From: an uncultured Bacilli bacterium
GTDB lineage: Bacteria; Bacillota_I; Bacilli_A; RF39; UBA660
Reading direction: 5' to 3'
Assembly: GCA_934157235.1 (NCBI GenBank)
Contig: CAKPHH010000001.1
Location: 131,330-195,329 of the forward strand
Length of the DNA: 64,000 nucleotides
In this document: piece by piece, positions 361 to 61,611 of the stretch
Layout of the letters: every line of letters begins with the position of its first letter
Position numbering within the stretch: position 1 is the stretch's first letter
Notes under the pieces: model-generated
The model's input: only the letters and a program-made list of their open reading frames with translations
Databases searched by the model: none
What the model was told of the DNA's origin: nothing
Translations under genes and position numbers: made by a program

Positions 361-2301
361 ATGACATATGAATTTGAATTACCATTAGTATCACTAGTAT
401 TTGTCTTAATACTAGCCATTGTTTATTTTTCCAAGAAAAAAGTAAATTTACTTGAAAATAAGATGTACGAAAAAATACTAATTTGTTCTTTAGTAGAAAT
501 AATTATTAATACTATAATTCATTTTATATGTGCCTTTAACTCCTTTGAAGTTATTCAAAGTAAATATTATCTTCTCTTTGACTTTCTAAATAAAATTTTA
601 TCAACTATGTTTGTCATGATTTTTATGTCCTTGTTATGTTACACCATAATTATAACTTATGATAAAGCCAAAAATAATGCCGCAAAACTCTTAAAAGCAT
701 CGTATATCCTTGAAATATTATTCTTTGTTGGCACATTATTTACCCATATAAATTTAGTTAACATGAGTAGTGTTATAAATGTAAATGGTCCAACTATTAT
801 TCTTGGCTACACTGTAGTAGCCATTCTCTTACTAGCTTCTTTAGTGGTAACTTTAATAAATATCAAAAGAATTGATAAGCGTCATATCGCCATATTTGGC
901 ATAATCATTGTTTTAGGAATAATTTTTGCCTTAACATTATTATTCCCAGGTATGATTATCTATGATTTAGCCCCAGCTCTATTATGCTACATCATGTACT
1001 TCACTATAGAAAATCCAGATATTAAAATGATTGCTGAGTTAAACCTAGCAAAAGACCAGGCTGAAAAAGCTAATCATGCTAAGAGTGACTTTTTATCTAG
1101 TATGTCCCATGAAATTAGAACACCTTTAAATGCCATCGTTGGTCTATCAGAAGATATGGTTGAAAGAGGAAATTGTCCTAAAGAGATGGAAGAGGATTTA
1201 AATGATATCTTAGAAGCATCAAGAACCCTTCTAGAAATAGTTGGTAATATTATGGATATCAATAAAATTGAAAGTGACAAACTAAAAATAATCGAAACAA
1301 CTTACAACTATAAAAAAGAAGCTGAAATTCTTGCTAAAATAAATGCCACTAGAATAGGTGATAGACCAATAGAACTAAAAGTATCTATTGCTGAAGACAT
1401 CCCCGAGCAATTAATTGGCGATAGAATCCATGTCAAACAAATAATTAATAACTTATTATCAAATGCTATTAAATATACTAATGAAGGAACCGTTGAGTTT
1501 ACTTCCAAATGTATTAATAAAGATGATGAAACTATTTTAATAATTAGTGTTAAAGACACTGGTAGAGGTATTAAAAAAGAAGATATTTCTAAATTATTCA
1601 CAAAATTTGAACGACTTGATATTGAAAAAAGTTCTACTACTGAAGGAACAGGACTAGGTCTAGCAATCACTAAGAAAATTGTTGAAATGATGAATGGTAA
1701 GATCAATGTCCAAAGTAGTTATGGAAAAGGTTCAATCTTTATAGTTCAACTTCCTCAAAAAATAGATCGTACTAAAATGAAAAATGACTATATTGAAACA
1801 CTTTCCAAAGATACAACTTATAATGATTATAGTGATAAAAAAGTTCTAATTGTCGATGATAATAAATTAAATATCAAAGTAGCTAGAAGAGCCCTAGAAC
1901 CATTCAAAGTTCAAATAGAAGCTCTTGAAAATGGTCAAGATTGTATTAATAAAATAAATCTAGGCAAAAAATATGATCTTATCTTAATGGACATTCAAAT
2001 GCCTATTATGTCTGGAGAAACAGCCCTAAAAGAATTAAAAAAACTTCCTGATTTTAAAACCCCAGTCATTGCTTTAACAGCTGATGTAATTTATGGAAGT
2101 GAAGAAAAATATCTAGAACAGGGATTTGCTGATTATATTCCTAAACCATTTAGTAAAGATCAAATAAAAGCTAAATTAGACAAAATCTTTAAAAACGCTC
2201 CTTCTATAAGTGAAGAAGAAACTCCAACATATGATCCCAACATCGATCGTTTTAAAGATGTCGAAGCTATAGTTATTGAAAAAGATGAAACGAAGGAATG
2301 A
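361..2301 (+). CDS. Membrane-bound hybrid sensor histidine kinase (multi-TM N-terminus, HisKA, HATPase_c, C-terminal receiver domain)
   Basis: About six N-terminal hydrophobic helices. H-box [14 protein letters not shown]-box NAIKYT. G-boxes DTGRGI and GTGLGLAI. Receiver motifs [21 protein letters not shown]. Confidence 0.85.
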
Positions 2302-4719: not shown

Positions 4720-4852
4720 TAAATCTGTCTTAACTATACATAACTAATATTATTAATAGTATTGCTCCAAACACTATATTAAAGCTTTTTAAGTAATACT
4801 TAGTAAAAAAGATAAAAAGGAAAAACTACTAATAAAGTATTAAGGAGATAAA

Positions 4853-5347
4853 ATGGAAAGATTAGATGTAATATATTATTGTGACCCAGACAAACCAAAT
4901 AAGTTTTCTAAACATGTAGGAAACATCAGTAAATTGGAAGAGATTGGTTTTCCAGAAGATGAAACACCTGTTGTAATTGAAATAGTCCATGAGGTTGAGT
5001 ACTTGGATGCCGAGTTAAGACCAAGCCACTTTAAAAATCAAGTTACCTATACAGTTGGAGAAGAGCGAGACTCTAATGAAGTATTTTCTCCTATCTTCCA
5101 ACATAAAGTAGGTGATCCATATGCCTTCCATAGAAGTTGTCAGGATCATACTATGGTTGTATATACAAGCCCATCGGGAGTAAGATATACAAGACCTAAA
5201 AATTCTGATGTGAAAGCATTTAAAACTACAGAGGCTCTAAAAGAAGGTTTCATATTCTATTTAAATGCTTATTTTGAACAAAAAGAAAAATACCAAGAAA
5301 GTATAGCTGAAAGAGTAACTTCAGCCAAAGTCTATCAGAAAAAGTAA
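4853..5347 (+). CDS. Tandem-paralog family member 2
   Basis: MERLDVIYYCDPDKP, VEYLDAEL...VTYTVGEE, VVYTSPSGVRYTRPK...VKAFKTTEALKEGFIFYLNAYF...KVYQKK. RBS AAGGAGA. Confidence 0.65.
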   Translation: MERLDVIYYCDPDKPNKFSKHVGNISKLEEIGFPEDETPVVIEIVHEVEYLDAELRPSHFKNQVTYTVGEERDSNEVFSPIFQHKVGDPYAFHRSCQDHTMVVYTSPSGVRYTRPKNSDVKAFKTTEALKEGFIFYLNAYFEQKEKYQESIAERVTSAKVYQKK

Positions 5348-5357
5348 GGCTCCATAA

Positions 5358-5383
5358 AGAAAAGTGAACACTTTTCTTTTTTT
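5358..5383 (+). terminator. Rho-independent terminator after family member 2
   Basis: Stem GAAAAGTG / CACTTTTC with a 2-nt loop, followed by a T9 run. Confidence 0.6.
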
Positions 5384-5419
5384 TAGTTATTTTTTATAGC
5401 CCAACAAGCCAAGTAAAAT

Positions 5420-5448
5420 TTGCAAAAAAGCCAAAAATGTGATATAAT
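5420..5448 (+). promoter_or_regulatory. Near-consensus sigma-A promoter driving family member 3
   Basis: -35 TTGCAA (5420-5425), 17-nt spacer, -10 TATAAT (5443-5448) with an upstream TG (TGaTATAAT), followed by a GGGGG RBS. Confidence 0.6.
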
Positions 5449-5475
5449 ATGTGCACTATTGAGGGGGAATATAAT

Positions 5476-6072
5476 ATGAAAAAGTTAGATATCTATTATC
5501 ATTGTAAACCAAAAGGTCAAGAAAATGGTTTCTTTAGTGTTGAGGATGTTTTAAGTGCTGATGACATTAAATATCCTAAATTCTTTATACCAGTTCAAAT
5601 AGATGTTGTAAAAACAGAAACTAGAGAAGGTCTAGATGGCGAAGAAATAACTTCTACTTCTACCATGAAATATACAATTGGTAGTCTTGAACAAACAGCT
5701 AAAGTATTAACAGAAATAAAAGAAGATGAAGGTAGAATTGTTAAAACACCATATAGAACAAAAATGTTAACTGACGCTAAAGTACATGCTAGTAATGCTC
5801 TAAAAGAACAAATTTTATCTACCAATCCCGTTCTTTATAAAGATTATTTATATCCACAAGTAGCAGTCTTTAAAACACCAACAGGAGACAAACAAGTTTA
5901 TGCTAAAAGTAGTTCAGTTAAAGTGTTTAGTACACTATCTGCCCTAAAGATGGCTTTTATAGGTGATACAATTGACTACTTAGGTTCCAACAACAAAACA
6001 GAAACTCCTGCTAAAACTTACACAAAAAATACTAAATATAAAGGTCATTTCGACAACAATTCCAATAAATAG
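5476..6072 (+). CDS. Tandem-paralog family member 3 (start moved to the second Met)
   Basis: The ATG at 5449 lies inside the -10 element; the GAGGGGG RBS precedes ATG 5476. MKKLDIYYHCKPKG...VAVFKTPTGDKQVY...KVFSTLSALKMAFIGDTIDYL...KTYTKNTKYKGHF. Confidence 0.65.
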   Translation: MKKLDIYYHCKPKGQENGFFSVEDVLSADDIKYPKFFIPVQIDVVKTETREGLDGEEITSTSTMKYTIGSLEQTAKVLTEIKEDEGRIVKTPYRTKMLTDAKVHASNALKEQILSTNPVLYKDYLYPQVAVFKTPTGDKQVYAKSSSVKVFSTLSALKMAFIGDTIDYLGSNNKTETPAKTYTKNTKYKGHFDNNSNK

Positions 6073-6104
6073 AATTATACTTAATATAAAGAGGAGAATT
6101 TAAA

Positions 6105-6692
6105 ATGAAAAAATTAGATATTTTTTATCACTGTAATCATGAGTGCCCAAGAAGTTGTACTACATTTACCGCTAATGTTGGAAATGTAGATGAAATCGAA
6201 TGGCCAATTGAAAAATTAAAAGGACCAGTTCAAGTAGATGTTGTAAAAAAAGAAGTTGAAGGTGACAGAGTACTTTCTGCAGAAGTAACCACTTATATGA
6301 TTGGTAATATTGCCGAAGCTTCAGAAGTTATAATTAGTCCATTTGGTTATCTTGAGGCTATCCAACAACCATTAAGAGAAAGAAAACTACCAGCAAGCCA
6401 AGAAAAGTACCTAAGTGTTGAATACAAGCCTTATAGAATACCACATCCCTTAAGCTTCTATAAAAGATGTCCCAACAAAAAAATGATAGTTTATCAAACT
6501 CCATCTGGTCAAAAACAAATTTGTCCTAAAACAGAAGATATCAAAGTTTATAAAAATCTATCTGCTATGGCTATAGGCTTCTTAGGTGATGTTATTGATT
6601 ACTTTGCCGAAGCTGAAAAAGAAGAAAGTACCGCTAAAACTTATACAAAAAATGATAAATTTAAAGGTAACTTTCACGTTTTCTTTGAATAA
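6105..6692 (+). CDS. Tandem-paralog family member 4
   Basis: MKKLDIFYHCNHECP...MIVYQTPSGQKQICPK...KVYKNLSAMAIGFLGDVIDYF...KTYTKNDKFKGNF. Closest to member 3. RBS AGAGGAGA. Confidence 0.65.
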   Translation: MKKLDIFYHCNHECPRSCTTFTANVGNVDEIEWPIEKLKGPVQVDVVKKEVEGDRVLSAEVTTYMIGNIAEASEVIISPFGYLEAIQQPLRERKLPASQEKYLSVEYKPYRIPHPLSFYKRCPNKKMIVYQTPSGQKQICPKTEDIKVYKNLSAMAIGFLGDVIDYFAEAEKEESTAKTYTKNDKFKGNFHVFFE

Positions 6693-6747
6693 AACAAGAT
6701 AGTTAAAAGGACATAGATACATAAAAAAAGAAGGGAACAAATCAAAT

Positions 6748-7313
6748 ATGCAACCATTAAATGTAAATATCATTTTTCAAATGAAAGGTGTAAAAGTGGC
6801 TATCTCGATGTCGTAATCCCATCTCTTGATGAAATAATATATCCCAATGCCTATTTTGGCGACTGTCTAACAGATATGATTACTATTACACAAAACGTTA
6901 GTTATTTTGATGTGGAAGGCATCGAGCAGTCTATAAATAAAAAAGTAATACTAATAGTAGGTAAAGAAGAAAAGGCTGTTAAAGTATTAGATAATACAGA
7001 AGATTATTTAGTAGGGCAATCACATCTTGAAAGTGCTATGCCATTATTAAAAGTTAAAGGTAACTCTTTCCTACCAGATCAAGCTGATATAAGCCCATAT
7101 AACTTTGCCCAGAAATGCACTGGTAACCCTAGACAAATGATTGTCTATAAAGAACCAAACTCAAAGAAAAAATACATTTTTCCAAAGACAAAAACTACTA
7201 AGTCTTTTAAAACTCCAGCTGATTTAAAAGATGGATTCTATACTTTTCTAAAGGCTTATTTTGCTAACGATAATACAAAAGGTGAAAAAACAAAAGTATA
7301 TACAAGAAAATAA
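6748..7313 (+). pseudogene. Tandem-paralog family member 5, disrupted by an apparent -1 frameshift near 6763-6766
   Basis: An RBS AGAAGGGAA precedes ATG 6748, which encodes MQPLNV then runs into a stop at 6814-6816. The body frame (open from 6717) reads ...KYHFSNE... and ends ...KVYTRK. Restoring one base gives MQPLNVKYHFSNE, matching the family N-terminus M-x-x-L-[DEN]-[IV]-x-Y-H-[CF]. The ATG 6876 of the listed ORF has no RBS. Confidence 0.5.
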
Positions 7314-12250: not shown

Positions 12251-12925
12251 ATGAAAAAGGCTATTATTTTAACTATTTGTATATTACTATCGGTAACTGC
12301 TTGCACTACCAAGAAAGAAGAAACTGTAGCAAATAAAGATTCTATAGAAACTAAAGAAATAACTCTAGTAACTGAACAAGACACAACAACCATTGCAACT
12401 GATGAAGAAGTTGTCGAGTACATTGAAGATGTTACCAATGAGGTTGAAACATTAACCGAAGAAGAAAGTCTTTCTGAAAAGACTAAGCAATCTTTAAAAA
12501 AGACTTTTATCACCTTAACTGATTTCATCTTTTATGATGGAACAATCAAAGGAAAGACTTTTAAAGAATTAAGCTATGAAGCTCAAACTAAAATTCTTGA
12601 ATTATATGAAAAAATAGATACGAAAATAGAAAGTGTTTTTCCAAATTATAAAGAAGAAATAAAAGATACTTCAACCAAAACTTATAGTAAAGCAAAAGAA
12701 AAAGCTAAAGAATTAAAAGAAAAAATTAAAAGTATTTATATCGAAAGAGTCGGTGAAGATACTTATCAAAAAGAAATGGATATTATCAAAAATACCAAAG
12801 ATAAAGTTGTTGAAAAGACAACTCCGGTTATTTCTGATGTTAAGGATAAAGCCAAAGATACTTATACTAAAACTAAAGATAAATTAGATGAATGGTATAA
12901 AAACTTTAAAGAAAGTAGTGAATAA
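12251..12925 (+). CDS. Lipoprotein, K/E-rich, unknown function
   Basis: Signal peptide with lipobox LSVTAC. Charged low-complexity mature part. RBS GGGGGAA. Confidence 0.6.
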   Translation: MKKAIILTICILLSVTACTTKKEETVANKDSIETKEITLVTEQDTTTIATDEEVVEYIEDVTNEVETLTEEESLSEKTKQSLKKTFITLTDFIFYDGTIKGKTFKELSYEAQTKILELYEKIDTKIESVFPNYKEEIKDTSTKTYSKAKEKAKELKEKIKSIYIERVGEDTYQKEMDIIKNTKDKVVEKTTPVISDVKDKAKDTYTKTKDKLDEWYKNFKESSE

Positions 12926-22820: not shown

Positions 22821-23183
22821 ATGTCGAAAGAAACATTTAAAGCATTTGCTAGGAGTCATCCTGAACTTGCAACATCTGTCATGAAAAATAATGCAACTTG
22901 GCAAAAACTTTATGAACTATATGAAATATATGGTGAAAACAGCCAAGTATGGGATGGCTACTTTTCAAAAACAACATCTCTTTCCGATAAGACAACCGCC
23001 TTTTCTGCCTCTTTCAAAGACTTATTTAATACCGTAAAAAATGTTGATCTAGAATCAGTTCAAAAAGGCGTAAATAATCTTCAAAAAACTATTGGTCTCC
23101 TTCAAGATATCGGTTTTTCAACAACAGCATCCAAAACTCCAACTTATGAACCAAGACCAATCCATAAATACTTCGAGGATTAA
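22821..23183 (+). CDS. YlbD-like (spore-coat-associated) small protein
   Basis: The motif FKAFARSHPELATSVMKNNATWQKLYELYEIYGE resembles B. subtilis YlbD. Sits upstream of rsmD (ylbH), as in Bacillus. Confidence 0.45.
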   Translation: MSKETFKAFARSHPELATSVMKNNATWQKLYELYEIYGENSQVWDGYFSKTTSLSDKTTAFSASFKDLFNTVKNVDLESVQKGVNNLQKTIGLLQDIGFSTTASKTPTYEPRPIHKYFED

Positions 23184-33954: not shown

Positions 33955-34437
33955 ATGGCTACCATAACTTTAATCGCAGCCATAGGAGACAATAATTGTC
34001 TAGGAAAAGATAATAAATTATTATGGCATATTCCTGAAGATTTAAAATTTTTCAAAGAACATACTATTGGTAAACAAATAATACTAGGAAGAAAAACTTT
34101 AGAATCCCTACCAGGGCTCCTTCCTAAAAGAAAACATTTAGTCTTAACACATCAAAATATAGAAGAAAACGAAAACCTAAAAACATTTTCTAATCTAAAC
34201 GATTTACTAAAGTACCTAGCGCCTTTAGAAGAAGAGGTCATGGTAATTGGTGGAGCTAAAGTCTATGAAGAGTTTTTACCATATGCTCATAAATTAATCT
34301 TAACAGAAATATCAGAAAACGTAGAAGCTGATGCTTATTTTCCAACTATAAAAGAATCCGACTGGGAAAAAGAAATCTTATCAGAACATGAATATAATGG
34401 ACTAAAGTATATTCATGCCATCTATAAAAGAAAATAA
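33955..34437 (+). CDS. folA: Dihydrofolate reductase
   Basis: IAAIGDNNCLGKDNKLLWHIPEDLKFFKEHT, GRKT, VIGGAKVYEEFL. The ATG is 1 nt after the thyA stop. Confidence 0.9.
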   Translation: MATITLIAAIGDNNCLGKDNKLLWHIPEDLKFFKEHTIGKQIILGRKTLESLPGLLPKRKHLVLTHQNIEENENLKTFSNLNDLLKYLAPLEEEVMVIGGAKVYEEFLPYAHKLILTEISENVEADAYFPTIKESDWEKEILSEHEYNGLKYIHAIYKRK

Positions 34438-34450
34438 ATTAAAAATGTAA

Positions 34451-34481
34451 AATATCACTCAAAAAAAGTGATATTTTTTTC
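34451..34481 (+). terminator. Rho-independent terminator after thyA-folA
   Basis: AATATCACT-caaaaaa-AGTGATATT hairpin followed by a T7 run. Confidence 0.65.
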
Positions 34482-34558
34482 TTAAAGTAATTGAGTTTTT
34501 TCTCTAAATAATGTAATATTATAAGAGAATAATGTAAAGAGTAAAGGGTGTGTTAAAT

Positions 34559-36382
34559 ATGACTTTAAGAATGTATGGAAGTATGGCTTTTGCAATTTGT
34601 GCTTTAGTATATTTAAGTTTTTTATTACTTATGTATATAAATAAGAAGAAAGTAGGGGGTATGCAAACTAAAGTATTTTCTGCCTTACTTGCTGCAGCAA
34701 TTTTCCTGTCTCTTAGTGAATGTGGTTACGTTTATGGACTTTCTGTTTTAAAAACAGATCCTAAATTAACTGAAATAACTTGTCGAATTTATACCTTTGG
34801 TATTTTATTAATTATAAATTTATTTATATATTATCTTATAACTATGTTTCAAAAAGGATACGAGAAAGAGAAACAACGTAAGAGAAATTTAATTGCCTTA
34901 GGTCTAGGAGTATTATTAACAGTTATAATTACTTTAATTTCTATATTGCTACCATTAGATTATACCAGTTCAAAATCTGGACTATATAATTTTGCTGGAC
35001 CAGCTACCACAATAGTATACGCTGAAGGATTCCTTTTATTCCTTGCTATATTTATTGTTATGATTATTAAAAGAAAAAAAATACCTAAAAGTCAACAGAG
35101 ACCTATTTATTTCTTTTTATTTATCTTCATTGTCTTTATATCTCCACAATTAATCTTTGATTATGACTTAAACTTAATTTCATTTAACTTTGCTTTCATG
35201 GTTTCAACTTTATACTTTACCCTTGAAAGTCAGGACAATAAGCTAGTTCAAGAACTTCAAGCTCTAAAAGAAGATGCTGAAACAGCCGATAAAGCTAAAA
35301 CAGAATTCTTAATAAATATGTCCCATGAAATTAGATCTCCTATGAGTACAATCTTAGGTTACAGTGAAATTCTTCTAAACGAAGAACCATTAACAGAAAG
35401 TGTTGCTAAAAGAGATACTGAAAACATCTATAATGCCAGTAATGTTTTAATGCAATCTATAAGTACTATACTTGATATTTCAGAATTAGAAAATGATAAA
35501 GAAGTAATTAGAAATGAACAATATAACATTAATAGTCTATTATTTGAAATAGAAGAGACAACCATTTCTAAAATTAAACGTGATATTGAATACAAGACAA
35601 TTTCAAATAACACTATTCCAAAAGAACTAATTGGTGATGTAGAAAAGATTCGTAAAATTCTTAATTACATAATTGATTATTTCTTAGATTCTACACCATC
35701 TGGAAAAATAACTTTATCAGTTAGTTCCAAAACACCAGATGCTGATAAATGTCAAATGTTCTTTACTATCACCAGCAACAATTGCCATATTTCTCAAGAA
35801 AAATTTGATATTGAATTTAATGATTTTGTTAAATTAGATGAAAATTCTGATAATTCTATTGATACTATTGATTTAAAATTAATAATCGCTAAAAAATATA
35901 TTGGCTTATTAAAAGGAAAAGTAGATTTCAACAATGAAAATAATAACTGCGATTGTACAATTCTATTACCACAAGGTATTGAGGAAAATGCTACTATTCC
36001 TCGCCAAACTGTAAGAGAAGAACATCCAGATAACAAAAAGACTGTCTTAATAGCCGATGAAAATAGAGTTAATCACATAATTATAAATAAATTTTTAGAA
36101 AATGATGGTTTTAATATCATGAATTCTTATAGTAAAGAAGATGCAAATAACAAAATTAGATTTGAAAAACTAGATTTAATTTTAATAGATTCGAACTTTT
36201 TAAATGAAGATTTAGAACACATACTTAAAGAAAAAACAGAACCTTGTGCTATTGTTGAAATGAATGAAAATCATGTTCTTAAGACCAAAGAATATGTTAA
36301 TGATATTATTTATAAACCTATAAGCAATGATTCTATCAGAAAAGTAATTAACAGATATATTAATGAAAAGGAAGTGAAATAA
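34559..36382 (+). CDS. Membrane histidine-kinase paralog: intact H-box, degenerate ATP-binding domain and degenerate receiver
   Basis: TM sensor ending [10 protein letters not shown]-box [15 protein letters not shown]. No DxGxG/GxGxG G-boxes in the HATPase-like part. Receiver-like C-terminus reads LIADEN...LILIDSN, missing the acidic pair. Start at ATG 34559, after GGGTG. Confidence 0.75.
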
Positions 36383-38238
36383 TGATTACAGGATTAACAC
36401 TAACTATTGGTAGTTTCTTTTTCATGATTTTGTTACTTATTGTTTATTTTTCACAAAATAAACAAAAAACAATTGAAACTAAATTATATAAATATATGCT
36501 TATTACTATGATGGCTTTAATCGTTACTGAGATTATCTTATGTGCCATAGTATATTACGCTGATAGTGAACAAATTAAAACTATAGCAGCAAGAATTCAC
36601 TGGCTCTCAGCTGTAGCTTGGTTCTACTTATTGTATTTTTACAGTATTGCCTTTCTACGTGACATATCAATCGATTCATTTGGCAAATATATGTTTTATG
36701 ATACTAGAAGCAAGATAATGACTATTTTTACTATAATCGTACTAATGGTATATTTCTTTATTCCATTTTCAAGTTTTGAAAAGATGTCTTATCTTCCAGG
36801 TCCAGCTGCCTACTTCTTAATTACCTATTGTACAATAGTTATGCTATGTATAATTGGCTATACTATTTTCCATGGTAAAGAAATCAATGCCCGTAAGAAA
36901 AAAACTATCTTTTTCCAAGTAATAATTCTAGCCGTTGATATGACTCTTCAATTTATGTTCAAAGATATTGCAATTGAAGCTATTGGTGCTGCTGTTCAAA
37001 TGTTCTACTTATACTTTAACATTGAAAATCCAGACATCAAAAATGTTGCTGAACTAGAAATTATAAAAGCTGATATTGATAAATCAAATAAAACTAAATC
37101 GGACTTCTTATCAAATATATCTAGCGAAATAGTTCATCCAATGAATACAATTATTAATTGTAGTAAATTAATACTGAAAGATGATAACTATACCGAAGAG
37201 AAGGCTAAAGGTTATATCAAAGAAATATCTATTGCCGGTAGTAATCTATTAAACATTATTGATAATGTCCTAGATATATCTGCTCTTGATTCTAACGAAG
37301 AAGTTCTTGATTCTAAAGAATACTCTGTTGTTAATATTGTTAAAGATATAACTGATGTAATCAATACAAAACTAGGTGAAAAACCCGTAGAATTTTTACT
37401 AGAAGTAGATGAACAAATACCAAGTAAATTATCTGGTGATCATAACAAGATATATCAAATTCTCTTGAATCTTTTATCTAATTCTATTGAACATACTGAA
37501 GTTGGTAAAATAAAGCTAACTATTGAAATGGAAAAGAAAGATAATGATAACTGTACTTTAGTAATTCGTGTAAACGATACTGGAACAGGAATGACTAGAG
37601 AAGAGTACGACAAAATAAATAGCATTCTAAATACCAAGGAATCAGATAATTCTAATAATATTGATGAAATAGGTTTAGGTTTATCTACTATAAAGAAATA
37701 CATTACTTTAATGAATGGTAATATAACTTTCCAAAGTGAATATGGAGTAGGTAGTTCTTTCCAAGTTCAAATAGACCAAAAAATAATTAACAATATGCCA
37801 GTAGGCGATGTCAAAAACACTATTAAATCTGATGAGAAAATCACTTACATTGATTGTTCTAGATACACAGTTCTAATAGTAGACGATGATGAATTAAGTT
37901 CTAAAGTAACTGAAAGAATGCTTGAGCCTTATAAATTTAACATCAAGAAAGTATCATCGGGAAGAGAATGTATTTATAATATTAAAGAAGATAATAAATA
38001 TGACTTAATATTTATGGATCATATGATGCAAAGTTTAAATGGTATTGAAACTCTTCACAAAATAAGAAAACTAGATGGTTATACCATTCCTCCAGTAATA
38101 GCTCTAACAGCTAACGCTATCTCTGGTATGCGTGAATTATATTTAAATGAAGGTTTTGATGAATACTTGCCAAAACCAATCAAAACAGCTGAACTTAATA
38201 GCTTAATTAAAAAGTATTTTGGTAAAGACTTACAATAA
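36382..38238 (+). CDS. Membrane hybrid histidine-kinase paralog: H-box His replaced (SSEIVHP), intact HATPase_c and receiver
   Basis: The TAATG overlap with the upstream kinase implies translational coupling. YFNIENPDIK junction. LSNISSEIVHPMNT replaces SHEIRTP. NDTGTGM and GLGLSTIKKY G-boxes. Receiver VLIVDDDE, LIFMDHMMQ, ALTANA, KP. Confidence 0.75.
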   Translation: MITGLTLTIGSFFFMILLLIVYFSQNKQKTIETKLYKYMLITMMALIVTEIILCAIVYYADSEQIKTIAARIHWLSAVAWFYLLYFYSIAFLRDISIDSFGKYMFYDTRSKIMTIFTIIVLMVYFFIPFSSFEKMSYLPGPAAYFLITYCTIVMLCIIGYTIFHGKEINARKKKTIFFQVIILAVDMTLQFMFKDIAIEAIGAAVQMFYLYFNIENPDIKNVAELEIIKADIDKSNKTKSDFLSNISSEIVHPMNTIINCSKLILKDDNYTEEKAKGYIKEISIAGSNLLNIIDNVLDISALDSNEEVLDSKEYSVVNIVKDITDVINTKLGEKPVEFLLEVDEQIPSKLSGDHNKIYQILLNLLSNSIEHTEVGKIKLTIEMEKKDNDNCTLVIRVNDTGTGMTREEYDKINSILNTKESDNSNNIDEIGLGLSTIKKYITLMNGNITFQSEYGVGSSFQVQIDQKIINNMPVGDVKNTIKSDEKITYIDCSRYTVLIVDDDELSSKVTERMLEPYKFNIKKVSSGRECIYNIKEDNKYDLIFMDHMMQSLNGIETLHKIRKLDGYTIPPVIALTANAISGMRELYLNEGFDEYLPKPIKTAELNSLIKKYFGKDLQ

Positions 38239-38272
38239 AAAAGATTTCACGAATAACGTGAAATCTTTTAAT
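38238..38272. terminator. Bidirectional Rho-independent terminator between convergent genes
   Basis: AAAGATTTCACG-aataa-CGTGAAATCTTT perfect hairpin flanked by A and T runs. Confidence 0.65.
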
Positions 38273-38887
38273 TTAGGACTTTTTTCTAAGACATAATTCC
38301 CATAATACTTTAGGATTATCATATCTATCCATATTATTTTCTTCTAAATAGTATACATTAAAATTTTTAAAATAATAGTTGCAGTCTTCTTCATCAAAAT
38401 ATCTTTTATAAATATTTCCATCGAAGAAAAAGTTATGATCGATTTTTTCTAAATTATTTGTAGAAGGAATTCCCTTAGTTGAGTTAACTCTAACTAAAAG
38501 ATAGCCATCTTTCTTTAGTACCCTTAAAATTTCTTTAATGATATACTTTGTCATTTCCTTATCAAAATAGTGTAGACATAAATCCGCAATTATAACATCA
38601 ACAGAATTATCACTAAATGGTAATCCTCCAGTCATATCAAATAACATTGTCTGTAAATCTTTATTTTCTTCCTGGATCATCTTTAATACTTCAGTTGAAA
38701 AGTCTGTTGCGATAACGTCACTAAACCCTTCTGAAATTAAATAATTACTACAGTAAGCTCTTCCACACCCAAGTTCCACAAACTTAAAGTCTTTTCTAAA
38801 TAGTTTAGTATATTTATTTAGCCAATCATCATAAGTTGAAATATACTTCTTATGAATATTATCCCAATATATATTAAAATCACTCAT
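38273..38887 (-). CDS. Class I SAM-dependent methyltransferase
   Basis: Motif I VELGCGRAYCSNYL, motif II ADLCLHYF, motif post-II LKKDGYLLV. Confidence 0.75.
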   Translation of the reverse strand: MSDFNIYWDNIHKKYISTYDDWLNKYTKLFRKDFKFVELGCGRAYCSNYLISEGFSDVIATDFSTEVLKMIQEENKDLQTMLFDMTGGLPFSDNSVDVIIADLCLHYFDKEMTKYIIKEILRVLKKDGYLLVRVNSTKGIPSTNNLEKIDHNFFFDGNIYKRYFDEEDCNYYFKNFNVYYLEENNMDRYDNPKVLWELCLRKKS

Positions 38888-43694: not shown

Positions 43695-43820
43695 ATCAAT
43701 ATAAGTATATGTATACAAAACTTCTAGAGAGTATCTGTAAACAATAATGTCAAGCCTAGTTTAGGTCACTATGTTTTTACCAAAAAAGATGTTATACTAT
43801 AGTATGAAAGGATGATAAAA

Positions 43821-44327
43821 ATGAGTAGAGAAAATGATGTAATAAAAGATAAAGCGCATTATGATAGAATCTATGGTGGAGACAATCGTAGAGAAACAGA
43901 ACAAATATGGGAAAGAGAAAGAGCAGCAGCTAGAGTAAGAGATGAAAGAGATGAGTACGAAAGAAGAACAAGGGAGACTCAAAGAGAACATTCAGATCTA
44001 CTTAGAGGAATGTCGCCGGACGATCGAAGAAGATATGATGAAATGAGAAGAAGAGAAGAATTCTATAGAGGAATGGATTCGGAAAAAAGAGTATCAGCTT
44101 TAGGACGTGAAAGAGAAATTATTGATTATCAAAATCAGATGCAACAAAGACAAGATGCAAAAGCAAAAGAAAAAGCTGCTAGAGAATTGGCTTTCAAAAA
44201 AGCAAAAATGCGTTATAACTCTCTAAACCCACTAGTTAAAGTTTTCTCAAAAAATCCAGACAAAATAGATTATGGATCAATGAGTGCCGATAGAATTGAC
44301 TCTCTATATGGAGGTAAGAAAAGATGA
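43821..44327 (+). CDS. Highly charged R/E/D-rich protein of unknown function
   Basis: Start at MSRENDV after GAAAGGA. Runs of RE/RR/ER dipeptides (ERERAAARVRDERDEYERRTRETQREH). Locally GC-richer codons. Confidence 0.5.
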   Translation: MSRENDVIKDKAHYDRIYGGDNRRETEQIWERERAAARVRDERDEYERRTRETQREHSDLLRGMSPDDRRRYDEMRRREEFYRGMDSEKRVSALGREREIIDYQNQMQQRQDAKAKEKAARELAFKKAKMRYNSLNPLVKVFSKNPDKIDYGSMSADRIDSLYGGKKR

Positions 44328-44608
44328 TGGATGAACTTAACATCGCATTCAATGATTATATTGATGCCTACAAAGATTTAGATATAGCCGAAAAAAGAAA
44401 AGAAATGATAAATAATATTAAAGAAATGATTGCTATGATCGAACAAACGGCTACTGATGAAGGAATCGTATTAAACTACCTAAGAAGTAGAGAAATACTA
44501 GATTTAGACGAAGGTCGAGAAAGTGAAGACGATTACTTAGAAGCTCTACTTGTATACGTTGAAAACTTTAAAAATATCTTAGGACAATATCTAGATAAAA
44601 GAAAATAA
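44324..44608 (+). CDS. Small acidic protein (94 aa), translationally coupled to the preceding gene
   Basis: The start overlaps the upstream stop (GATGATGG). Acidic, helical. Confidence 0.5.
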   Translation: MMDELNIAFNDYIDAYKDLDIAEKRKEMINNIKEMIAMIEQTATDEGIVLNYLRSREILDLDEGRESEDDYLEALLVYVENFKNILGQYLDKRK

Positions 44609-55473: not shown

Positions 55474-56109
55474 TTATTTACTTTTTACAATATTTCTCTT
55501 TTCAATCTTATAATTTTCTATTTGACAATTATCACTCATACATGAATCACAAGTCGTTAAAGTAAAACTTTTCAAATCTTTAGAAATATCAAAATCTAAA
55601 GCAGACTCATTTATTTTTAATTTTTTACCATCACTAGTCATTATCATAATTTTACTTGAGTTGCATTGCTTTGCGACAAATGAATTAAAGATATAAACAT
55701 TGTTAGATTGAATAATTTCAAAATAAGCAGCAGCGTTCTTTGAATAAATATTATCATTATCTATTGTTAAAACCTTTTTATCTTTTAGATAAATATTCGC
55801 TTTATATTTATATATAACACCATCATCACTATTTTCTTGTTCCTTACTAACAAATTCAATCTTTAAATCCTTATTAAAGTTATAAGATTCTTGTTCATCT
55901 GTTAAATACAACTTTCTCGTAAATTTAATAGAGACATCTGGAGAAAAATTTATTTTATTTTCTTCTTTATTAGTATAGTTTAACCAGACTCCATATAGTA
56001 AAAGAATTGTCAAAGCAATAAGTGCTAAACTATGTTTATTAATAAAACTCTTCTTATTAACAATTTCTTTTTTCTTGTTATTATATTTCTTCACCAAAAT
56101 TCCTCCCAC
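55474..56109 (-). CDS. N-terminally membrane-anchored hypothetical protein
   Basis: TM ALIALTILLLYGVWL, then a soluble domain with Cys pairs near the C-terminus (CNSS...CDSCMSDNC). Confidence 0.55.
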   Translation of the reverse strand: MGGILVKKYNNKKKEIVNKKSFINKHSLALIALTILLLYGVWLNYTNKEENKINFSPDVSIKFTRKLYLTDEQESYNFNKDLKIEFVSKEQENSDDGVIYKYKANIYLKDKKVLTIDNDNIYSKNAAAYFEIIQSNNVYIFNSFVAKQCNSSKIMIMTSDGKKLKINESALDFDISKDLKSFTLTTCDSCMSDNCQIENYKIEKRNIVKSK

Positions 56110-56266: not shown

Positions 56267-56336
56267 ATGTGTACTTTGAAGGTGAGAGACCCGAAGTATA
56301 CAAAATTAAAATTTATATAGGGTGGGGTTGAGTATA

Positions 56337-56756
56337 ATGAATAATGCGTATATTTTCGAGTATTTGGATGAAAATGATTTTCGTAAAAAGGAAAGATCAG
56401 TTAGAAAGTATAACATGTTAGCTTATAAGAAATTAACTTTTAATTATTATCCAGAATTACGTAAAGGTAACTTTTTAGGTAAAGAGATTAATAAGAATGA
56501 AAAGAATAATACAATAAGCTATGAATTGAAATTACCTACTGATGAATTATTTGTTAAAGTACATGGTGAAATTACATTACACTATACTGTATATACAGAA
56601 AAGAAAATAATCCTTTTAACAAACATTACACCAGAAGGAATTTTAGATGAAGGACACAGAGCTGAATTATCAACATATAAAGGTGTTATGATTTCAAAAA
56701 CTAATCCAGAGAAAGATATGTTCAAAATTAATTTAATTAATATGTTAGGAAAATAG
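56337..56756 (+). CDS. Hypothetical 140-aa cytoplasmic protein
   Basis: ATG 56337 about 11 nt after GGTGGGG. No recognised motif. Beta-rich C-terminal half (ITLHYTVYTEKKIILLTNI). Confidence 0.5.
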   Translation: MNNAYIFEYLDENDFRKKERSVRKYNMLAYKKLTFNYYPELRKGNFLGKEINKNEKNNTISYELKLPTDELFVKVHGEITLHYTVYTEKKIILLTNITPEGILDEGHRAELSTYKGVMISKTNPEKDMFKINLINMLGK

Positions 56757-60695: not shown

Positions 60696-61217
60696 ATGAT
60701 GAAAAAGTTGAAAAACCCTATCAATGTTTTATTACTTTTTATAATCGCTATTTTAGCTCAGTTTATAATACTTCCTCCTTTTCTTAGAATTGTTATAGCT
60801 GATGTAAATTTATCAAATAAAAAAGATCCAACTACCAAAATAAATAAAGATATAGAAGTCTTAGTATGTACTAAATTTGATTTACCAACATCAACTCTCA
60901 TAACCAGTAGAACAAGTTATAAATATACTGAACCAAATCAACTAACCATAACTTATGAAAAAATTGAGTCTAATGCCAATCTAACTAGTGAAAAAACTTC
61001 ATCCTCTTCCACCACAAATGAAGAATTAGACTTTTTCTCCTCAATAGATGGTGTTGAAATAACCAAACAAAAAAATAAAACTATTATCTTAATACCAGAC
61101 TATGTAGTAGAATTAAATGAAGCTAACGAGACTCTTCTTGAATATTTTAATAATATAGAAACCCAGCAAAAGTTCTATGAAGAAAAAAGTTACAAATGTG
61201 AAAAGGCTAAGAATTAG
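60696..61217 (+). CDS. Hypothetical protein with an N-terminal TM/signal segment
   Basis: RBS AGGAGGAAAA. Hydrophobic PINVLLLFIIAILAQFIILPPFL. S/T-rich middle. Confidence 0.5.
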   Translation: MMKKLKNPINVLLLFIIAILAQFIILPPFLRIVIADVNLSNKKDPTTKINKDIEVLVCTKFDLPTSTLITSRTSYKYTEPNQLTITYEKIESNANLTSEKTSSSSTTNEELDFFSSIDGVEITKQKNKTIILIPDYVVELNEANETLLEYFNNIETQQKFYEEKSYKCEKAKN

Positions 61218-61611
61218 TCTTTTTTAAGTGTTCTTTTATATCACCAGATGGATGATAAACATTTCTAGGTTTAATCTTTAAAACCTCCTTTATATAATCA
61301 CTATTTTCAATATCTGTAACTAAAAATTTAACTTTATTATAATATAGTTTTTTCTTTGTCTTATCTTGAACTCTTTCTATTGCTTTTTCTAAATCTGAAC
61401 TTTCTCCTTCATAATACTTAAACTCATAATCAATTCCCATATCACTTCTAACTGGTATAACCTCCTTCATGTAAACTATATAAGAATGATTCTTATATTC
61501 AACTCCAACACCTTGAATAATCGCTAAATCATTTAATTCATGATACTCTGGTATTTTTATAATAAAACCAAACATAATGATTAAAACAACAAGTACAATA
61601 ATCTTTTTCAT
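61207..61611 (-). CDS. Short (134 aa) protein resembling only the N-terminal region of Ger(x)C germination lipoproteins
   Basis: Signal peptide-like N-terminus. NDLAIIQGVGVEY resembles the GerAC N-domain motif E(L/I)N(E/D)LAIV.G.G(I/V)D. Start overlaps the upstream GerAA stop. Confidence 0.45.
   Translation of the reverse strand: MKKIIVLVVLIIMFGFIIKIPEYHELNDLAIIQGVGVEYKNHSYIVYMKEVIPVRSDMGIDYEFKYYEGESSDLEKAIERVQDKTKKKLYYNKVKFLVTDIENSDYIKEVLKIKPRNVYHPSGDIKEHLKKTNS

What the first reader, a model, noticed from the sequence alone, without database searches (positions are those of the whole stretch)
34559..38238. Adjacent, translationally coupled histidine-kinase paralogs with complementary inactivating substitutions
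Three membrane hybrid kinases (361-2301, 34559-36382, 36382-38238) share a multi-TM sensor region ending in a conserved [FY]-[TF]-[IL]-E-N-P-D-I-K junction. The first is fully canonical. In the adjacent pair, kinase 2 keeps the phospho-acceptor H-box (MSHEIRSP) but has no recognisable G1/G2 ATP-lid glycine motifs, and its receiver-like tail lacks the acidic pocket (LIADEN, LILIDSN). Kinase 3 keeps N/G1/G2 boxes (NDTGTGM, GLGLST) and a canonical receiver (VLIVDDDE, LIFMDHMMQ, ALTANA, KP), but its H-box reads SSEIVHP with Ser at the His position. The genes overlap by TAATG. This looks like an obligate heteromeric kinase: kinase 3 would supply ATPase and receiver, and kinase 2 the phosphorylatable His, in trans. 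Alternatively it is a pseudokinase/kinase regulatory pair. No cognate DNA-binding response regulator or Hpt protein lies in the window.
Basis: partly seen in the sequence, partly recalled or inferred. Interest (0 to 1): 0.65.

Follow-up and report, generated by a model that had tools for sequence, protein, structure and literature searches.

The report
Two half-kinases that complete each other
Two overlapping genes in an uncultured gut bacterium encode sister membrane sensor kinases: one keeps only the phosphorylatable histidine and the other keeps only the ATP-binding core and receiver, and because this split recurs across a whole family of such gene pairs they probably work as one two-protein kinase, although no experiment has tested this.

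Summary
K2 (34559-36382) keeps a perfect H-box, has no N/G1/G2 ATP motifs, and has a sub-threshold receiver. K3 (36382-38238) has Ser248 at the His column but keeps the N-box Asn, G1 DxGxG and a canonical receiver. The genes overlap by TAATG.

- K3 has His252 one helical turn downstream. It is invariant in 38 orthologues.
- K2's receiver still has Asp500/Glu501/Asp544.
- K3's ATP lid is partly degenerate, and the N-box Lys is Glu.
- The pair is one case of an old "up-dn" tandem family.

In that family, up-type genes always keep His and almost always lack G1/G2. Of 71 full-length relatives, 26 lack His, against a 0.9% background, yet all 26 keep G1. All 13 His-less loci I examined have a His-bearing, ATP-motif-less partner immediately upstream. 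All domains are under purifying selection. Relatives link the pair to an Hpt protein and a REC-HD regulator.

Best reading (about 0.5): a natural split kinase in which the K3 catalytic domain phosphorylates K2 His256 in trans, then the phosphoryl group passes to K3 Asp546 and on to an unlinked Hpt.

Rivals: a RetS-like phosphatase/sink pair, or a shifted acceptor His252.

It is a new variant of the known split-kinase and pseudokinase themes. It has not been tested biochemically.

The parts
34559..36382 (+). K2, the 'up-type' hybrid-kinase paralogue (607 aa): 6-7 TM sensor, canonical DHp with His256, CA-like pseudo-domain without ATP motifs, and a pseudo-receiver.
   Evidence: ORF. Pfam gives HisKA 48.1 bits, no HATPase_c hit, and REC 26.8 bits, below the cut-off. 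AF2 model has pLDDT 75 with all domains folded. About 115 orthologues keep the same pattern. dN/dS is 0.03-0.19 per domain in most comparisons.
34559..35203 (+). K2 membrane sensor module (about 6-7 TM helices with short loops and a conserved GP loop motif).
   Evidence: Hydropathy. AF2 helices 3-199. Similar to the K3 TM region at 20% identity over about 200 aa, E=3e-4. No Pfam family matches.
35318..35341 (+). K2 H-box MSHEIRSP. The phospho-acceptor His256 codon is at 35324-35326. The following ILGYSE keeps the Gly at His+11.
   Evidence: Alignments. MSHEIR[ST]PMSTI is invariant in nearly all of the K2-clade sequences.
35663..35881 (+). K2 degenerate ATP-site region: N-box equivalent [11 protein letters not shown] (35663-35695), G1 equivalent SNNCHI (35774-35791), and G2 equivalent TIDLKL (35864-35881).
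   Evidence: No HATPase_c hit. The region is still conserved ([14 protein letters not shown]; mean identity 0.59-0.65) while the interdomain linker is at 0.25.
36041..36358 (+). K2 pseudo-receiver. Asp500/Glu501, Asp544 and Lys586 are kept. The Thr/Ser is lost (VEMNEN) and alpha4 is missing in the model.
   Evidence: The phospho-site Asp is replaced in some orthologues (P0123 has Glu, P0236 has Ser).
36370..36384 (+). Coupling junction: GGAAGTG ribosome-binding site inside the K2 3' end, then a TAATG stop/start overlap.
   Evidence: ATGA or TAATG overlaps occur at the same junction in L001, L004, L007, L009, L012, L013 and L014, and also in L096 and L098.
36382..38238 (+). K3, the 'dn-type' hybrid-kinase paralogue (618 aa): TM sensor, His-less DHp, CA domain with N-box Asn and G1 intact, and a canonical receiver.
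   Evidence: ORF. Pfam gives HisKA 31.5, HATPase_c 69.5 and REC 77.9 bits. 38 orthologues. AF2 model pLDDT 69.
37117..37140 (+). K3 variant H-box ISSEIVHP. Ser248 (37123-37125) sits in the His column. His252 (37135-37137) sits at +4, in place of the phosphatase Thr/Asn. The downstream IINCSK has lost the Gly at His+11.
   Evidence: S[SN]EI[VI]HPMN is found in 38 of 38 orthologues.
37468..37683 (+). K3 ATP-binding motifs: N-box NLLSNSIEHT (Asn367 kept, Lys to Glu370), G1 DTGTGM (37576-37593), no F-box, and G2 EIGLGL (37666-37683).
   Evidence: N367, D399, T400, G401 and G403 are invariant in the K3 clade, while the lid has mean identity 0.41 and dN/dS up to 0.53.
37867..38217 (+). K3 receiver domain with the full active-site set (Asp501/502/503, Asp546, Thr576, Lys598).
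   Evidence: Pfam REC 77.9 bits. It is the most conserved domain of the K3 clade, with mean identity 0.83 and dN/dS 0.03-0.06. All five helices are present in the model.
38239..38269 (.). Hairpin terminator directly after K3 (13-bp stem). It closes the two-gene unit and also serves the convergent methyltransferase gene.
361..2301 (+). K1, a stand-alone and fully canonical dn-like paralogue (H-box, N, G1, F, G2 and receiver all intact). It is a possible alternative phosphoryl source in the rival models.
   Evidence: There is no partner gene upstream.

Best explanation
K2 and K3 are the two subunits of a naturally split (heteromeric) hybrid histidine kinase.

They are translated from one coupled two-gene unit and both insert into the membrane through related 6-7 TM sensor modules. 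They associate through their DHp helices. This association is inferred and has not been shown.

Proposed phosphoryl path (every step is inferred):
1. The K3 catalytic domain still has the Mg-binding Asn367 and the adenine-binding G1 motif. It binds ATP and phosphorylates His256 of K2 in trans. K3 itself has no acceptor at the canonical position (Ser248), and K2 cannot bind ATP.
2. The phosphoryl group passes from K2 His256 to Asp546 of the canonical K3 receiver.
3. From there it passes to a separately encoded Hpt protein and a response regulator. By analogy with relatives, that regulator is a REC-HD(GYP-like) protein.

K2's CA-like and receiver-like domains survive as non-catalytic structural or regulatory modules.

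Shown directly: the residue patterns, their conservation, the co-inheritance of the two genes, and purifying selection on every domain.

Inferred: the physical heteromer, the trans-phosphorylation, the His256-to-Asp546 transfer, and the downstream partners.
For: 1. The defects in the window pair are reciprocal.

2. The pair is conserved and syntenic, with stop/start overlap, at 61-72% K3 identity.

3. The reciprocity holds across the family.
- Up-type proteins keep an invariant MSHEIRTP H-box but lack DxGxG and GxGxG in 8 of 9 representative clusters and in all loci read except L097_B.
- Their HATPase_c scores decay 47, 39, 23, then none.
- Of 71 full-length representatives, 26 lack His, against a 0.9% background for HisKA (PMC12632262); binomial p=2.6e-34.
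- These 26 keep the G1 Asp and GxG in 26/26, the N-box Asn in 24/26, and the receiver D/T/K in 25-26/26. Fisher p=3.8e-7 against the up-type.
- ATP motifs that persist in proteins with no acceptor His imply another substrate.

4. All 13 His-less dn loci examined have a His-bearing up gene lacking ATP motifs immediately upstream: the window, L001, L004, L007, L009 (two pairs), L012, L013, L014, L095, L096, L097 and L098.

5. His-less dn proteins have also lost the conserved Gly at His+11 in the receiver-contact stretch of alpha1 (5/26 against 33/36). K2 keeps it. K2's is therefore the only canonical phosphotransfer helix in the pair.

6. dN/dS is well below 1 for every domain, including K2's pseudo-domains.

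7. The relay context is visible in relatives: an Hpt and a REC-HD_5 gene next to the pair in L010/L011, and an Hpt fused to dn in L094.

8. There is a chemical precedent. EnvZ and BarA mutants (G2* plus His-to-Ala) complement in trans in vitro (PMC4734776). BarA is K3's best NCBIfam match. CheA3/CheA4 is a natural split kinase (PMC3591291).
Against: - No physical or biochemical evidence exists, and no multimer model could be run.
- In this window's lineage the K3 nucleotide site is not fully canonical. The N-box Lys is Glu370, the F-box is lost, the first G2 Gly is lost, and the lid evolves fast (identity 0.41, dN/dS up to 0.53). Sister lineages have even poorer G2 boxes (SSNFGL, GFNLIS). Kinase activity may therefore be weak or lost.
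- Trans-phosphorylation requires a trans-type DHp bundle. ArcB and EvgS are cis-type and do not complement. The handedness here is unknown.
- The invariant His252 in K3 is unexplained by this model.
- No Hpt or response regulator was found in the window, or on the K3-clade contigs that could be matched.
- K2 resembles RetS, which is an inhibitor and phosphatase rather than a substrate.
Confidence: 0.5

Rival explanations
1. Regulatory phosphatase/sink pair with no kinase activity of its own. K2 acts like RetS. It has a His and an HExx(T/S) transmitter-phosphatase motif but cannot autophosphorylate. It dephosphorylates, or takes phosphoryl groups from, the K3 receiver. The K3 receiver in turn is loaded by reverse transfer from an Hpt, or by another complete kinase such as K1. 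The K3 nucleotide pocket would serve only as a cofactor or regulatory site.
For: - K2's best solved-structure matches include RetS (6DK7/6DK8) and the 7N0E chains. The aligned CA regions are degenerate in the same way.
- RetS is His-positive with a degenerate HATPase. It acts on GacS by siphoning, by transmitter phosphatase activity (Thr428) and by blocking autophosphorylation (PMC5992135).
- K2-clade orthologues carry the HExxT motif.
- K3's ATP lid and N-box Lys are degenerate in this lineage.
- A complete paralogue, K1, exists in the same window.
Against: - It does not explain why G1 DxGxG (26/26) and the N-box Asn (24/26) are kept in every His-less dn lineage, while the same motifs decayed in up-type proteins and in the true pseudokinase PsmA.
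- RetS's target GacS is a complete kinase; K3 is not.
- The tight one-to-one co-inheritance and translational coupling suit a stoichiometric complex better than a modulator.
Confidence: 0.25
2. K3 is an autonomous kinase that uses His252, one helical turn below the canonical site, as a shifted phospho-acceptor. K2 would then be an accessory pseudokinase.
For: - His252 is invariant in 38 of 38 K3-clade orthologues within the fixed motif S[SN]EI[VI]HPMN.
- One unrelated His-less representative (P0379) also has His at +4.
- A similar idea was floated, without test, for the His-less Caulobacter hybrid kinase CCNA_03265 (PMC10760086).
Against: - Other His-less dn lineages have T/S/V/K and other residues at +4 (His in only 1 of 26), yet they keep the same partner arrangement. 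The +4 His is therefore not what lets His-less dn proteins persist.
- His252 is followed by Pro, not by the acidic residue that assists autophosphorylation.
- The alpha1 receiver-contact stretch of K3 has diverged, including loss of the Gly at His+11.
- The model does not explain why K2 keeps a perfect H-box.
Confidence: 0.1
3. Phosphorylation-independent pseudoenzyme pair. Both proteins have been repurposed as membrane scaffolds or sensors, as in PsmA or DivL, and signal through protein-protein contacts only.
For: - Each protein lacks something essential for canonical autophosphorylation.
- Pseudo-histidine kinases with scaffold roles are known (PMC12963549; PMC12632262).
Against: - The residues that matter only for phosphoryl chemistry are the best conserved. 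These are the K2 H-box (invariant in nearly all K2-clade sequences) and the K3 receiver DDD/D/T/K, with the receiver being the most conserved domain at 0.83 identity.
- In PsmA the His column and the ATP motifs both drift, and the receiver Asp is dispensable.
Confidence: 0.1
4. Decaying duplicates: one or both genes are on the way to becoming pseudogenes, and the complementary pattern is coincidental.
For: Loss of catalytic motifs in both genes.
Against: - The reading frames are intact.
- dN/dS is 0.03-0.19 for most domains over saturated dS.
- The same pattern holds in dozens of species-level clusters down to about 30-45% identity.
- K2's pseudo-domains are much better conserved than its interdomain linker (0.57-0.59 against 0.25).
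Confidence: 0.02

Closest known systems
Split (bipartite) histidine kinase CheA3/CheA4 of Rhodobacter sphaeroides, and the 'split kinase' concept (Amin, Porter & Soyer 2013, PMC3591291)
   Same: The ATP-binding/catalytic function and the phosphorylatable His sit on two different polypeptides that must act together. In that system neither protein autophosphorylates alone. The same paper predicted that HisKA proteins lacking HATPase but carrying HE/DxxN/T (1.7% of HisKA proteins) could be split bifunctional kinases. The K2 clade fits that description.
   Different: CheA is a class II kinase with a separate P1 His domain, and there the split arose by domain loss. Here both partners are full-length membrane HisKA-type hybrid kinase paralogues. 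They keep every domain fold, and the split arose by complementary point degeneration. The acceptor His lies in the dimerisation helix itself, so a DHp heterodimer (or a higher oligomer) is required. This pair is untested.
Laboratory intermolecular complementation of EnvZ or BarA mutants (G2-box mutant plus His-to-Ala mutant; Yang & Inouye 1991; PMC4734776)
   Same: The genotype combination is exactly the same: one subunit without the acceptor His and one without ATP binding. The heterodimer autophosphorylates in trans and, for BarA, passes the phosphoryl group on to the receiver Asp.
   Different: Those are engineered alleles of one gene forming mixed dimers. Here the two states are fixed in separate genes that are co-transcribed and have co-evolved. 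ArcB and EvgS do not complement because they are cis-type, so the outcome depends on bundle geometry that is not known here.
RetS-GacS of Pseudomonas aeruginosa (PMC5992135)
   Same: K2 resembles RetS. It is a membrane hybrid kinase with a His and an HExxT-type motif, a degenerate HATPase domain and an atypical receiver. It is among the nearest solved-structure matches. RetS works through direct contact with another hybrid kinase.
   Different: GacS is a complete kinase and RetS inhibits it. K3 lacks the acceptor His, so the relation is complementary rather than antagonistic on the face of the sequence. RetS and GacS are not adjacent, overlapping paralogues.
His-less pseudo-histidine kinases DivL (Tyr for His) and PsmA (variable residue)
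   Same: K3 and its relatives lack the H-box His. The replacing residue varies between lineages (Y, N, S, Q, D, K, E, F, T, I), much as in PsmA orthologues.
   Different: In PsmA the ATP-binding motifs have also decayed and the receiver Asp is dispensable. The K3-type proteins keep G1, the N-box Asn and a canonical receiver in essentially every lineage. They are also always paired with a His-bearing partner.
EspA/EspC hybrid kinases of Myxococcus xanthus (Schramm et al. 2012; cited in PMC8175716)
   Same: Two hybrid histidine kinases act as one signalling unit, with inter-protein phosphorylation between them. My recollection is that EspC does not autophosphorylate and that its receiver is phosphorylated by EspA. 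I could not read that paper.
   Different: As I recall, EspA is a complete kinase, so there is no reciprocal loss. The genes are not a tandem overlapping pair of the same sensor family.

Membership tests
Canonical HisKA-type hybrid sensor histidine kinase (autophosphorylating) | Phospho-acceptor His in the H-box of the DHp domain | tested here: not met
   K2 meets it (His256 in MSHEIRSP). K3 does not (Ser248). Profile and PDB alignments agree. The pair as separate proteins therefore fails.
Canonical HisKA-type hybrid sensor histidine kinase (autophosphorylating) | N, G1 and G2 ATP-binding boxes in the CA domain | tested here: not met
   K2 has no N-box Asn, no DxGxG, no GxGxG and no Pfam HATPase_c hit. 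K3 has the Asn and G1 intact, G2 partial (EIGLGL), no F-box, and N-box Lys changed to Glu.
Canonical HisKA-type hybrid sensor histidine kinase (autophosphorylating) | Receiver domain with the DD / D / T / K active-site set | tested here: inconclusive
   K3 has the full set and scores 77.9 bits. K2 keeps D-E, D and K but has no Thr/Ser, scores 26.8 bits against a 30.2 cut-off, and lacks alpha4 in the AF2 model.
Split / bipartite histidine kinase (CheA3-CheA4 type concept) | Phospho-acceptor and ATP-binding functions on different polypeptides | tested here: met
   Met at the level of sequence motifs only, in the window pair and across the family.
Split / bipartite histidine kinase (CheA3-CheA4 type concept) | The two genes are co-encoded and co-inherited | tested here: met
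   The genes overlap in the window. All 13 His-less dn loci have an up-type gene immediately upstream, and the His-positive pairs sampled are tandem as well.
Split / bipartite histidine kinase (CheA3-CheA4 type concept) | Neither protein autophosphorylates alone, and the mixture does | not testable with these tools
   This needs purified proteins and labelled ATP.
Split / bipartite histidine kinase (CheA3-CheA4 type concept) | The two proteins form a physical complex | not testable with these tools
   Only single-chain structure prediction was available. No multimer model or interaction data could be obtained.
RetS-like transmitter (His-positive, kinase-dead modulator of a partner kinase) | His plus an HExxT/N phosphatase motif together with a degenerate HATPase domain | tested here: met
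   K2 has HEIRSP, and its orthologues have HEIRTP. The CA domain is degenerate. RetS chains are among the best PDB matches.
RetS-like transmitter (His-positive, kinase-dead modulator of a partner kinase) | The partner is a complete, autophosphorylating kinase that is down-regulated | tested here: not met
   The partner K3 has no acceptor His at the canonical position. Whether K1 is a target was not testable.
Pseudo-receiver (PsR) domains (Bourret et al. 2025, PMC12632262) | Detected as a receiver but lacking key catalytic residues | tested here: inconclusive
   K2's tail keeps the phospho-site Asp544 and Lys586. It lacks the Thr/Ser. Across orthologues it also lacks the second acidic residue (D-S or D-N), and in two orthologues the Asp itself. 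It is borderline by Pfam.
His-less pseudo-histidine kinases (DivL / PsmA type) | H-box His replaced, with no phosphoryl chemistry required (ATP motifs and receiver Asp dispensable or decayed) | tested here: not met
   The His is replaced in K3. However, G1, the N-box Asn and the receiver set are conserved in 24-26 of 26 His-less lineages, unlike PsmA. Whether they are dispensable was not testable.

The most novel reading that the evidence does not exclude
A whole family of membrane hybrid histidine kinases in uncultured low-GC gut Bacilli works as obligate two-gene heteromers, and evolution has fixed the textbook 'His-minus plus ATP-minus' complementation. The upstream subunit is the dedicated phospho-acceptor and donor: it always keeps His and almost always lacks an ATP site. 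The downstream subunit is the dedicated ATP-binding and receiver module: about a third of lineages have no His at all. The K2/K3 pair in this window is the most advanced stage of that division of labour, because the upstream receiver has also become a pseudo-domain. If so, this would be the first natural class I (HisKA) kinase whose DHp dimer is an obligate heterodimer.
Probability: 0.45. Interest if true: 0.78.

Novelty: new variant of a known kind. Interest (0 to 1): 0.66.

Why it matters
Histidine kinases are taught as homodimers. Paralogues are thought to evolve so that they avoid heterodimerising.

A natural, conserved pair in which neither protein can autophosphorylate by the canonical route would show three things:
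- DHp heterodimers can be the functional unit of a kinase.
- Split kinases, so far demonstrated only for CheA-type kinases, also exist among ordinary HisKA sensors.
- There is a readable evolutionary series, from two complete paralogues, to a partner without ATP binding, to a partner without His, to loss of the first partner's receiver. This would be a case of subfunctionalisation locking two genes together.

It also bears on annotation. These proteins are currently labelled "response regulator", "hybrid sensory kinase" or "HisKA domain-containing protein". His-less or ATPase-less kinases are usually written off as pseudokinases. Checking the neighbouring gene could reclassify many of them.

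Two sensor modules feeding one catalytic unit would make a two-input integrator. Modelling of split kinases predicts switch-like behaviour (PMC3591291).

Tried and rejected
- **Promoter scan of 34300-38400.** It found 28 sites against 28.7 expected in shuffles, which is uninformative in 30% GC DNA. Only the terminator after K3 was usable.
- **Genome-contig scan with the K3-clade alignment.** One of the two patterns used (IFMDHMM) is common to many kinases, so 78 of the 80 loci were unrelated Lachnospiraceae and other kinases. Only L012, L013 and L014 were useful.
- **Bootstrap tree with Biopython.** It timed out, so I redid it with my own distance code. The tree does not resolve how many times His was lost. 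The K3 clade plus L009_B has 96% support, adding L009_A gives 64%, and L014 is basal at 55%. I therefore dropped the claim of several independent losses.
- **Search for an Hpt or regulator belonging to the K3-clade genome.** tblastn, Pfam and family HMMs found nothing in the window. An Hpt homologue search matched contigs of the His-positive clade (identical longest-contig values), but none of the K3/K2-clade contigs among the 120 hits shown. The question is unresolved.
- **Pseudogene decay.** Considered and rejected on dN/dS and domain conservation.
- **K2 receiver as acid-less.**
- **Fold searches of the AF2 models.** Not run, because the sequence-level PDB matches were already unambiguous.
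- **Schramm et al. 2012 (EspA/EspC).** The paper could not be read.
- **One Pfam call failed** because of a frame error and was repeated.

Full report
**What is in the window.** The three ORFs exist as described: K1 at 361-2301 (646 aa), K2 at 34559-36382 (607 aa; an in-frame GTG at 34550 is an alternative start) and K3 at 36382-38238 (618 aa). The K2 stop codon TAA (36380-36382) shares its last base with the K3 ATG. A GGAAGTG ribosome-binding site lies 5 nt upstream, inside K2. A 13-bp hairpin terminator follows K3 at 38239-38269. K2 and K3 therefore form a coupled two-gene unit between folA and a convergent methyltransferase gene. The DNA is 29.9% G+C. Public records that hold the identical or orthologous proteins call the organism "Tenericutes/Mycoplasmatota bacterium", "Mycoplasma sp. 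CAG:877" or "Bacilli bacterium", and they give the proteins only generic names.

**Checking the residues.**

| Protein | HisKA (bits) | HATPase_c (bits) | REC (bits) |
|---|---|---|---|
| K1 | 54.2 | 100.3 | 80.2 |
| K2 | 48.1 | no hit, even at E<=1 | 26.8 (cut-off 30.2) |
| K3 | 31.5 | 69.5 | 77.9 |

(All.)

- K2 has MSHEIRSP with His256. Its N-box equivalent reads IIDYFLDST, its G1 reads SNNCHI and its G2 reads TIDLKL.
- K3 has ISSEIVHP. Profile alignments and alignments to solved structures both place Ser248 in the His column. K3 keeps N-box Asn367, G1 DTGTGM and the receiver set VDDD / Asp546 / Thr576 / Lys598.

1. K2's receiver-like tail still has Asp500-Glu501, Asp544 and Lys586. It lacks the Thr/Ser. 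In an AF2 model (pLDDT 75) it also lacks helix alpha4.
2. K2's junction reads ESQDNK, not ENPDIK.
3. K3's nucleotide site is only partly canonical. There is no F-box, G2 is EIGLGL, and the N-box Lys (Asn+3) is Glu370.
4. K3 carries His252 four residues after the His column, where HisKA kinases have the Thr/Asn needed for phosphatase activity.

No Hpt or free-standing receiver lies in the window. The three N-terminal 6-7 TM modules are distantly homologous.

**Orthologues.**
- All 38 K3 orthologues (61-100% identity) carry S[SN]EI[VI]HPMN. The canonical His is never present and the +4 His is always present. More distant homologues (50% identity or less) mostly carry SHEIR[ST]PMN.
- In about 115 K2 orthologues (48-100% identity), MSHEIR[ST]PMSTI is invariant or nearly so. 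No DxGxG or GxGxG ever appears. The receiver-like domain keeps D, K and usually the phospho-site Asp, which is Glu or Ser in two orthologues.
- The pair stays adjacent, with an overlapping stop and start, in the same dnaJ-thyA-folA ... rnhB-cvpA-trx-ppdK context at 64-72% K3 identity. In more distant K3-clade relatives it sits in a different context.

**Selection.** Within the K3 clade the receiver is the best-conserved domain (mean pairwise identity 0.83), followed by the DHp (0.78). The ATP lid is the worst (0.41). Within the K2 clade the DHp is the best (0.78). The CA-like domain (0.59) and receiver-like domain (0.57) match the TM region (0.59) and stand far above the interdomain linker (0.25). 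dN/dS is well below 1 for every domain, although dS is saturated. K2's CA-like domain gives 0.03-0.14. K3's lid reaches 0.53 in the comparison of the window with L004. Neither gene is decaying, and K2's pseudo-domains are maintained.

**The family context is the main new result.** Every homologue of K3 whose neighbourhood I read is directly preceded by a K2-like gene.
- "Up-type" proteins have the junction YFTIESQD.K, an invariant H-box, and G1/G2 reading NTGHAM/TLG[LV] or SNNCxI/DLKL.
- "Dn-type" proteins have the junction ENPD, with N and G1 intact and a canonical receiver.

The loci form a series:
1. Both members are complete (second pair in L097).
2. Up has lost G1/G2 while dn is His-positive (L010/L011, L093, L094). 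L092 is the same except that its dn has Gln at the His column.
3. Dn has also lost His (L014, L095, L096, L009_A).
4. Up has in addition a degenerate or missing receiver (window, L001, L004, L007, L012, L013, L098, L009_B). L097_up has no receiver at all.

HATPase_c scores fall in step:

| Partner | Locus: HATPase_c bits |
|---|---|
| up | L010 47.4; L014 46.4; L007 39.2; L001 23.1; K2 none |
| dn | L010 93.9; L007 91.2; L014 90.4; L001 70.8; K3 69.5; L009_B 67.0; L004 61.1 |

In L010/L011 the pair follows a 122-aa Hpt gene and a REC-HD_5 gene. In L094 the dn protein carries a C-terminal Hpt (Pfam 22.8 bits; 39% identical to the L010 Hpt). In relatives, therefore, the relay runs from the dn receiver to an Hpt and then to a REC-HD regulator.

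**A census.** An exhaustive HMMER search of 50%-identity cluster representatives returned 150 best hits. Of the 71 full-length ones (560-700 aa) with a residue at the His column, 26 lack His: Y x7, N x3, S x3, Q x3, D x3, K x2, E x2, and F, T and I once each. The published background for HisKA domains is 0.9% (722 of 76,471; PMC12632262). The binomial p value is 2.6e-34.

| Feature | His-less dn (n=26) | His-positive dn/other (n=36) | up-type (n=9) |
|---|---|---|---|
| H-box His | 0/26 | 36/36 | 9/9 |
| G1 Asp | 26/26 | 36/36 | 1/9 |
| G1 GxG | 26/26 | 35/36 | 1/9 |
| N-box Asn | 24/26 | 36/36 | 9/9 |
| Last two G2 glycines | 23/26 | 35/36 | 1/9 |
| Receiver D / T / K | 25-26/26 | 35-36/36 | 9/9 |
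| Gly at His+11 | 5/26 | 33/36 | 9/9 |

 The G1 contrast between His-less dn and up-type gives Fisher p=3.8e-7. The Gly at His+11 lies in the stretch of alpha1 that contacts receivers. Its contrast between His-less and His-positive dn gives p=4.9e-9.

All 13 His-less dn loci examined, including four chosen from the census for having Tyr, Glu, Phe or Asp at the His column, have a His-bearing up gene without ATP motifs immediately upstream. A neighbour-joining tree does not resolve how many times His was lost. What is clear is that the His-less state has persisted down to about 30-45% identity and always alongside that partner.

**Interpretation.** ATP-binding residues that stay invariant in proteins with no acceptor His point to a division of labour. 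So does an acceptor His that stays invariant in proteins with no ATP site, when the two are always encoded side by side. The dn catalytic domain phosphorylates the up His in trans, and the phosphoryl group then moves to the dn receiver and on to an Hpt.

The chemistry has precedent. EnvZ and BarA mutants lacking G2, mixed with mutants lacking His, complement in vitro, and for BarA the phosphoryl group reaches the receiver Asp. ArcB and EvgS do not complement because they autophosphorylate in cis (PMC4734776). BarA is K3's best NCBIfam match. A natural split kinase is known for CheA3/CheA4, and split HisKA kinases were predicted from domain counts (PMC3591291). I found no description of complementary tandem hybrid-kinase paralogues in the literature available to me, but that library is incomplete.

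**Reasons for caution.**
- Nothing here shows that K2 and K3 bind each other, or that K3 is catalytically active.
- In this window's lineage, Glu370 replaces the N-box Lys, the F-box is gone, and the lid evolves quickly. Sister lineages have even poorer G2 boxes.
- K2 looks like RetS, which has a His, an HExxT motif and a dead HATPase. RetS is an inhibitor and phosphatase of GacS (PMC5992135; PDB matches). The pair could therefore be a phosphatase/sink module fed by another kinase such as the complete paralogue K1.
- His252 is invariant in the K3 clade and could be a shifted acceptor. It is absent from 25 of 26 other His-less lineages and is followed by Pro rather than an acidic residue, so I rank this rival low but do not exclude it.
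- A purely scaffold role, as for PsmA (PMC12963549), fits poorly, because the residues conserved best are those that matter only for phosphoryl transfer.

**Verdict.** It is a new variant of the known split-kinase and pseudo-kinase themes rather than a new kind of system. It merits a simple biochemical test: the mixed-protein phosphorylation assay with K2 H256A, K3 H252A, K3 D399A and K3 D546A.

Noticed in passing
L010:2110-4107 and L011:2110-4107: In His-positive relatives the kinase pair is preceded by a 122-aa Hpt gene and a 536-aa REC + HD_5 (HD-GYP-like) gene. This suggests that the family's output is a phosphodiesterase-type regulator rather than a DNA-binding one. Many Hpt homologues share contigs with this clade of dn proteins.
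   Followed up: partly
L094:8001-11195 (P0118; also P0105-P0120, 900-1064 aa): The downstream kinase is extended by a long, acidic, imperfectly repeated linker (units like EEKVEEKAEVATEPEVKEETKVEEKPAEP) that ends in an Hpt domain. This makes it an unorthodox HK-REC-Hpt kinase.
   Followed up: partly
L097:3506-11033: Two kinase pairs stand in a row. In the first, the upstream gene is only 487 aa and has no receiver at all, and its partner has Phe at the His column. In the second pair both members look fully canonical. L009 likewise holds two pairs, separated by an amidase fragment and followed by a serine recombinase gene.
   Followed up: partly
window 37615-37683 (K3 ATP lid), compared with L004: The K3 lid region evolves much faster than the rest of the protein (dN/dS 0.53 against 0.09 overall). 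Across orthologues its degeneration goes together with replacement of the N-box Lys by Glu or Asp. Orthologues with a canonical lid keep the Lys.
   Followed up: partly
P0379 (representative search hit): A distant His-less relative has Tyr at the His column and also has a His at +4 (ISYYLVHPANTI). It is the only one of 26 His-less representatives to share that feature with K3.
   Followed up: no
window 4231-7313 (+): Five consecutive small ORFs (145-207 aa) downstream of the glmM-like gene have no Pfam match at E<=0.01. ORFs at 12251-12925, 43812-44608, 55474-56109(-), 56322-56756 and 60696-61217 also have no match.
   Followed up: no
window 22821-23183 (+), 61207-61611 (-); also L096:1912-3015: Spore-related genes are present in an organism that public records label Tenericutes or Mycoplasma sp. 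CAG:877: a YlbD coat-like protein, a GerAC N-terminal domain, and GerA in a relative's locus. The lineage looks like a spore-forming low-GC Bacillota rather than a mollicute.
   Followed up: no
window 38273-38887 (-): The SAM-methyltransferase gene convergent on K3 is present here and in L004-L006. It is absent from the otherwise syntenic L001-L003 and L012, where rnhB follows the pair directly.
   Followed up: no
window 2338-2697 (+): A DUF4186 protein (135 bits) lies immediately downstream of the stand-alone canonical kinase K1.
   Followed up: no
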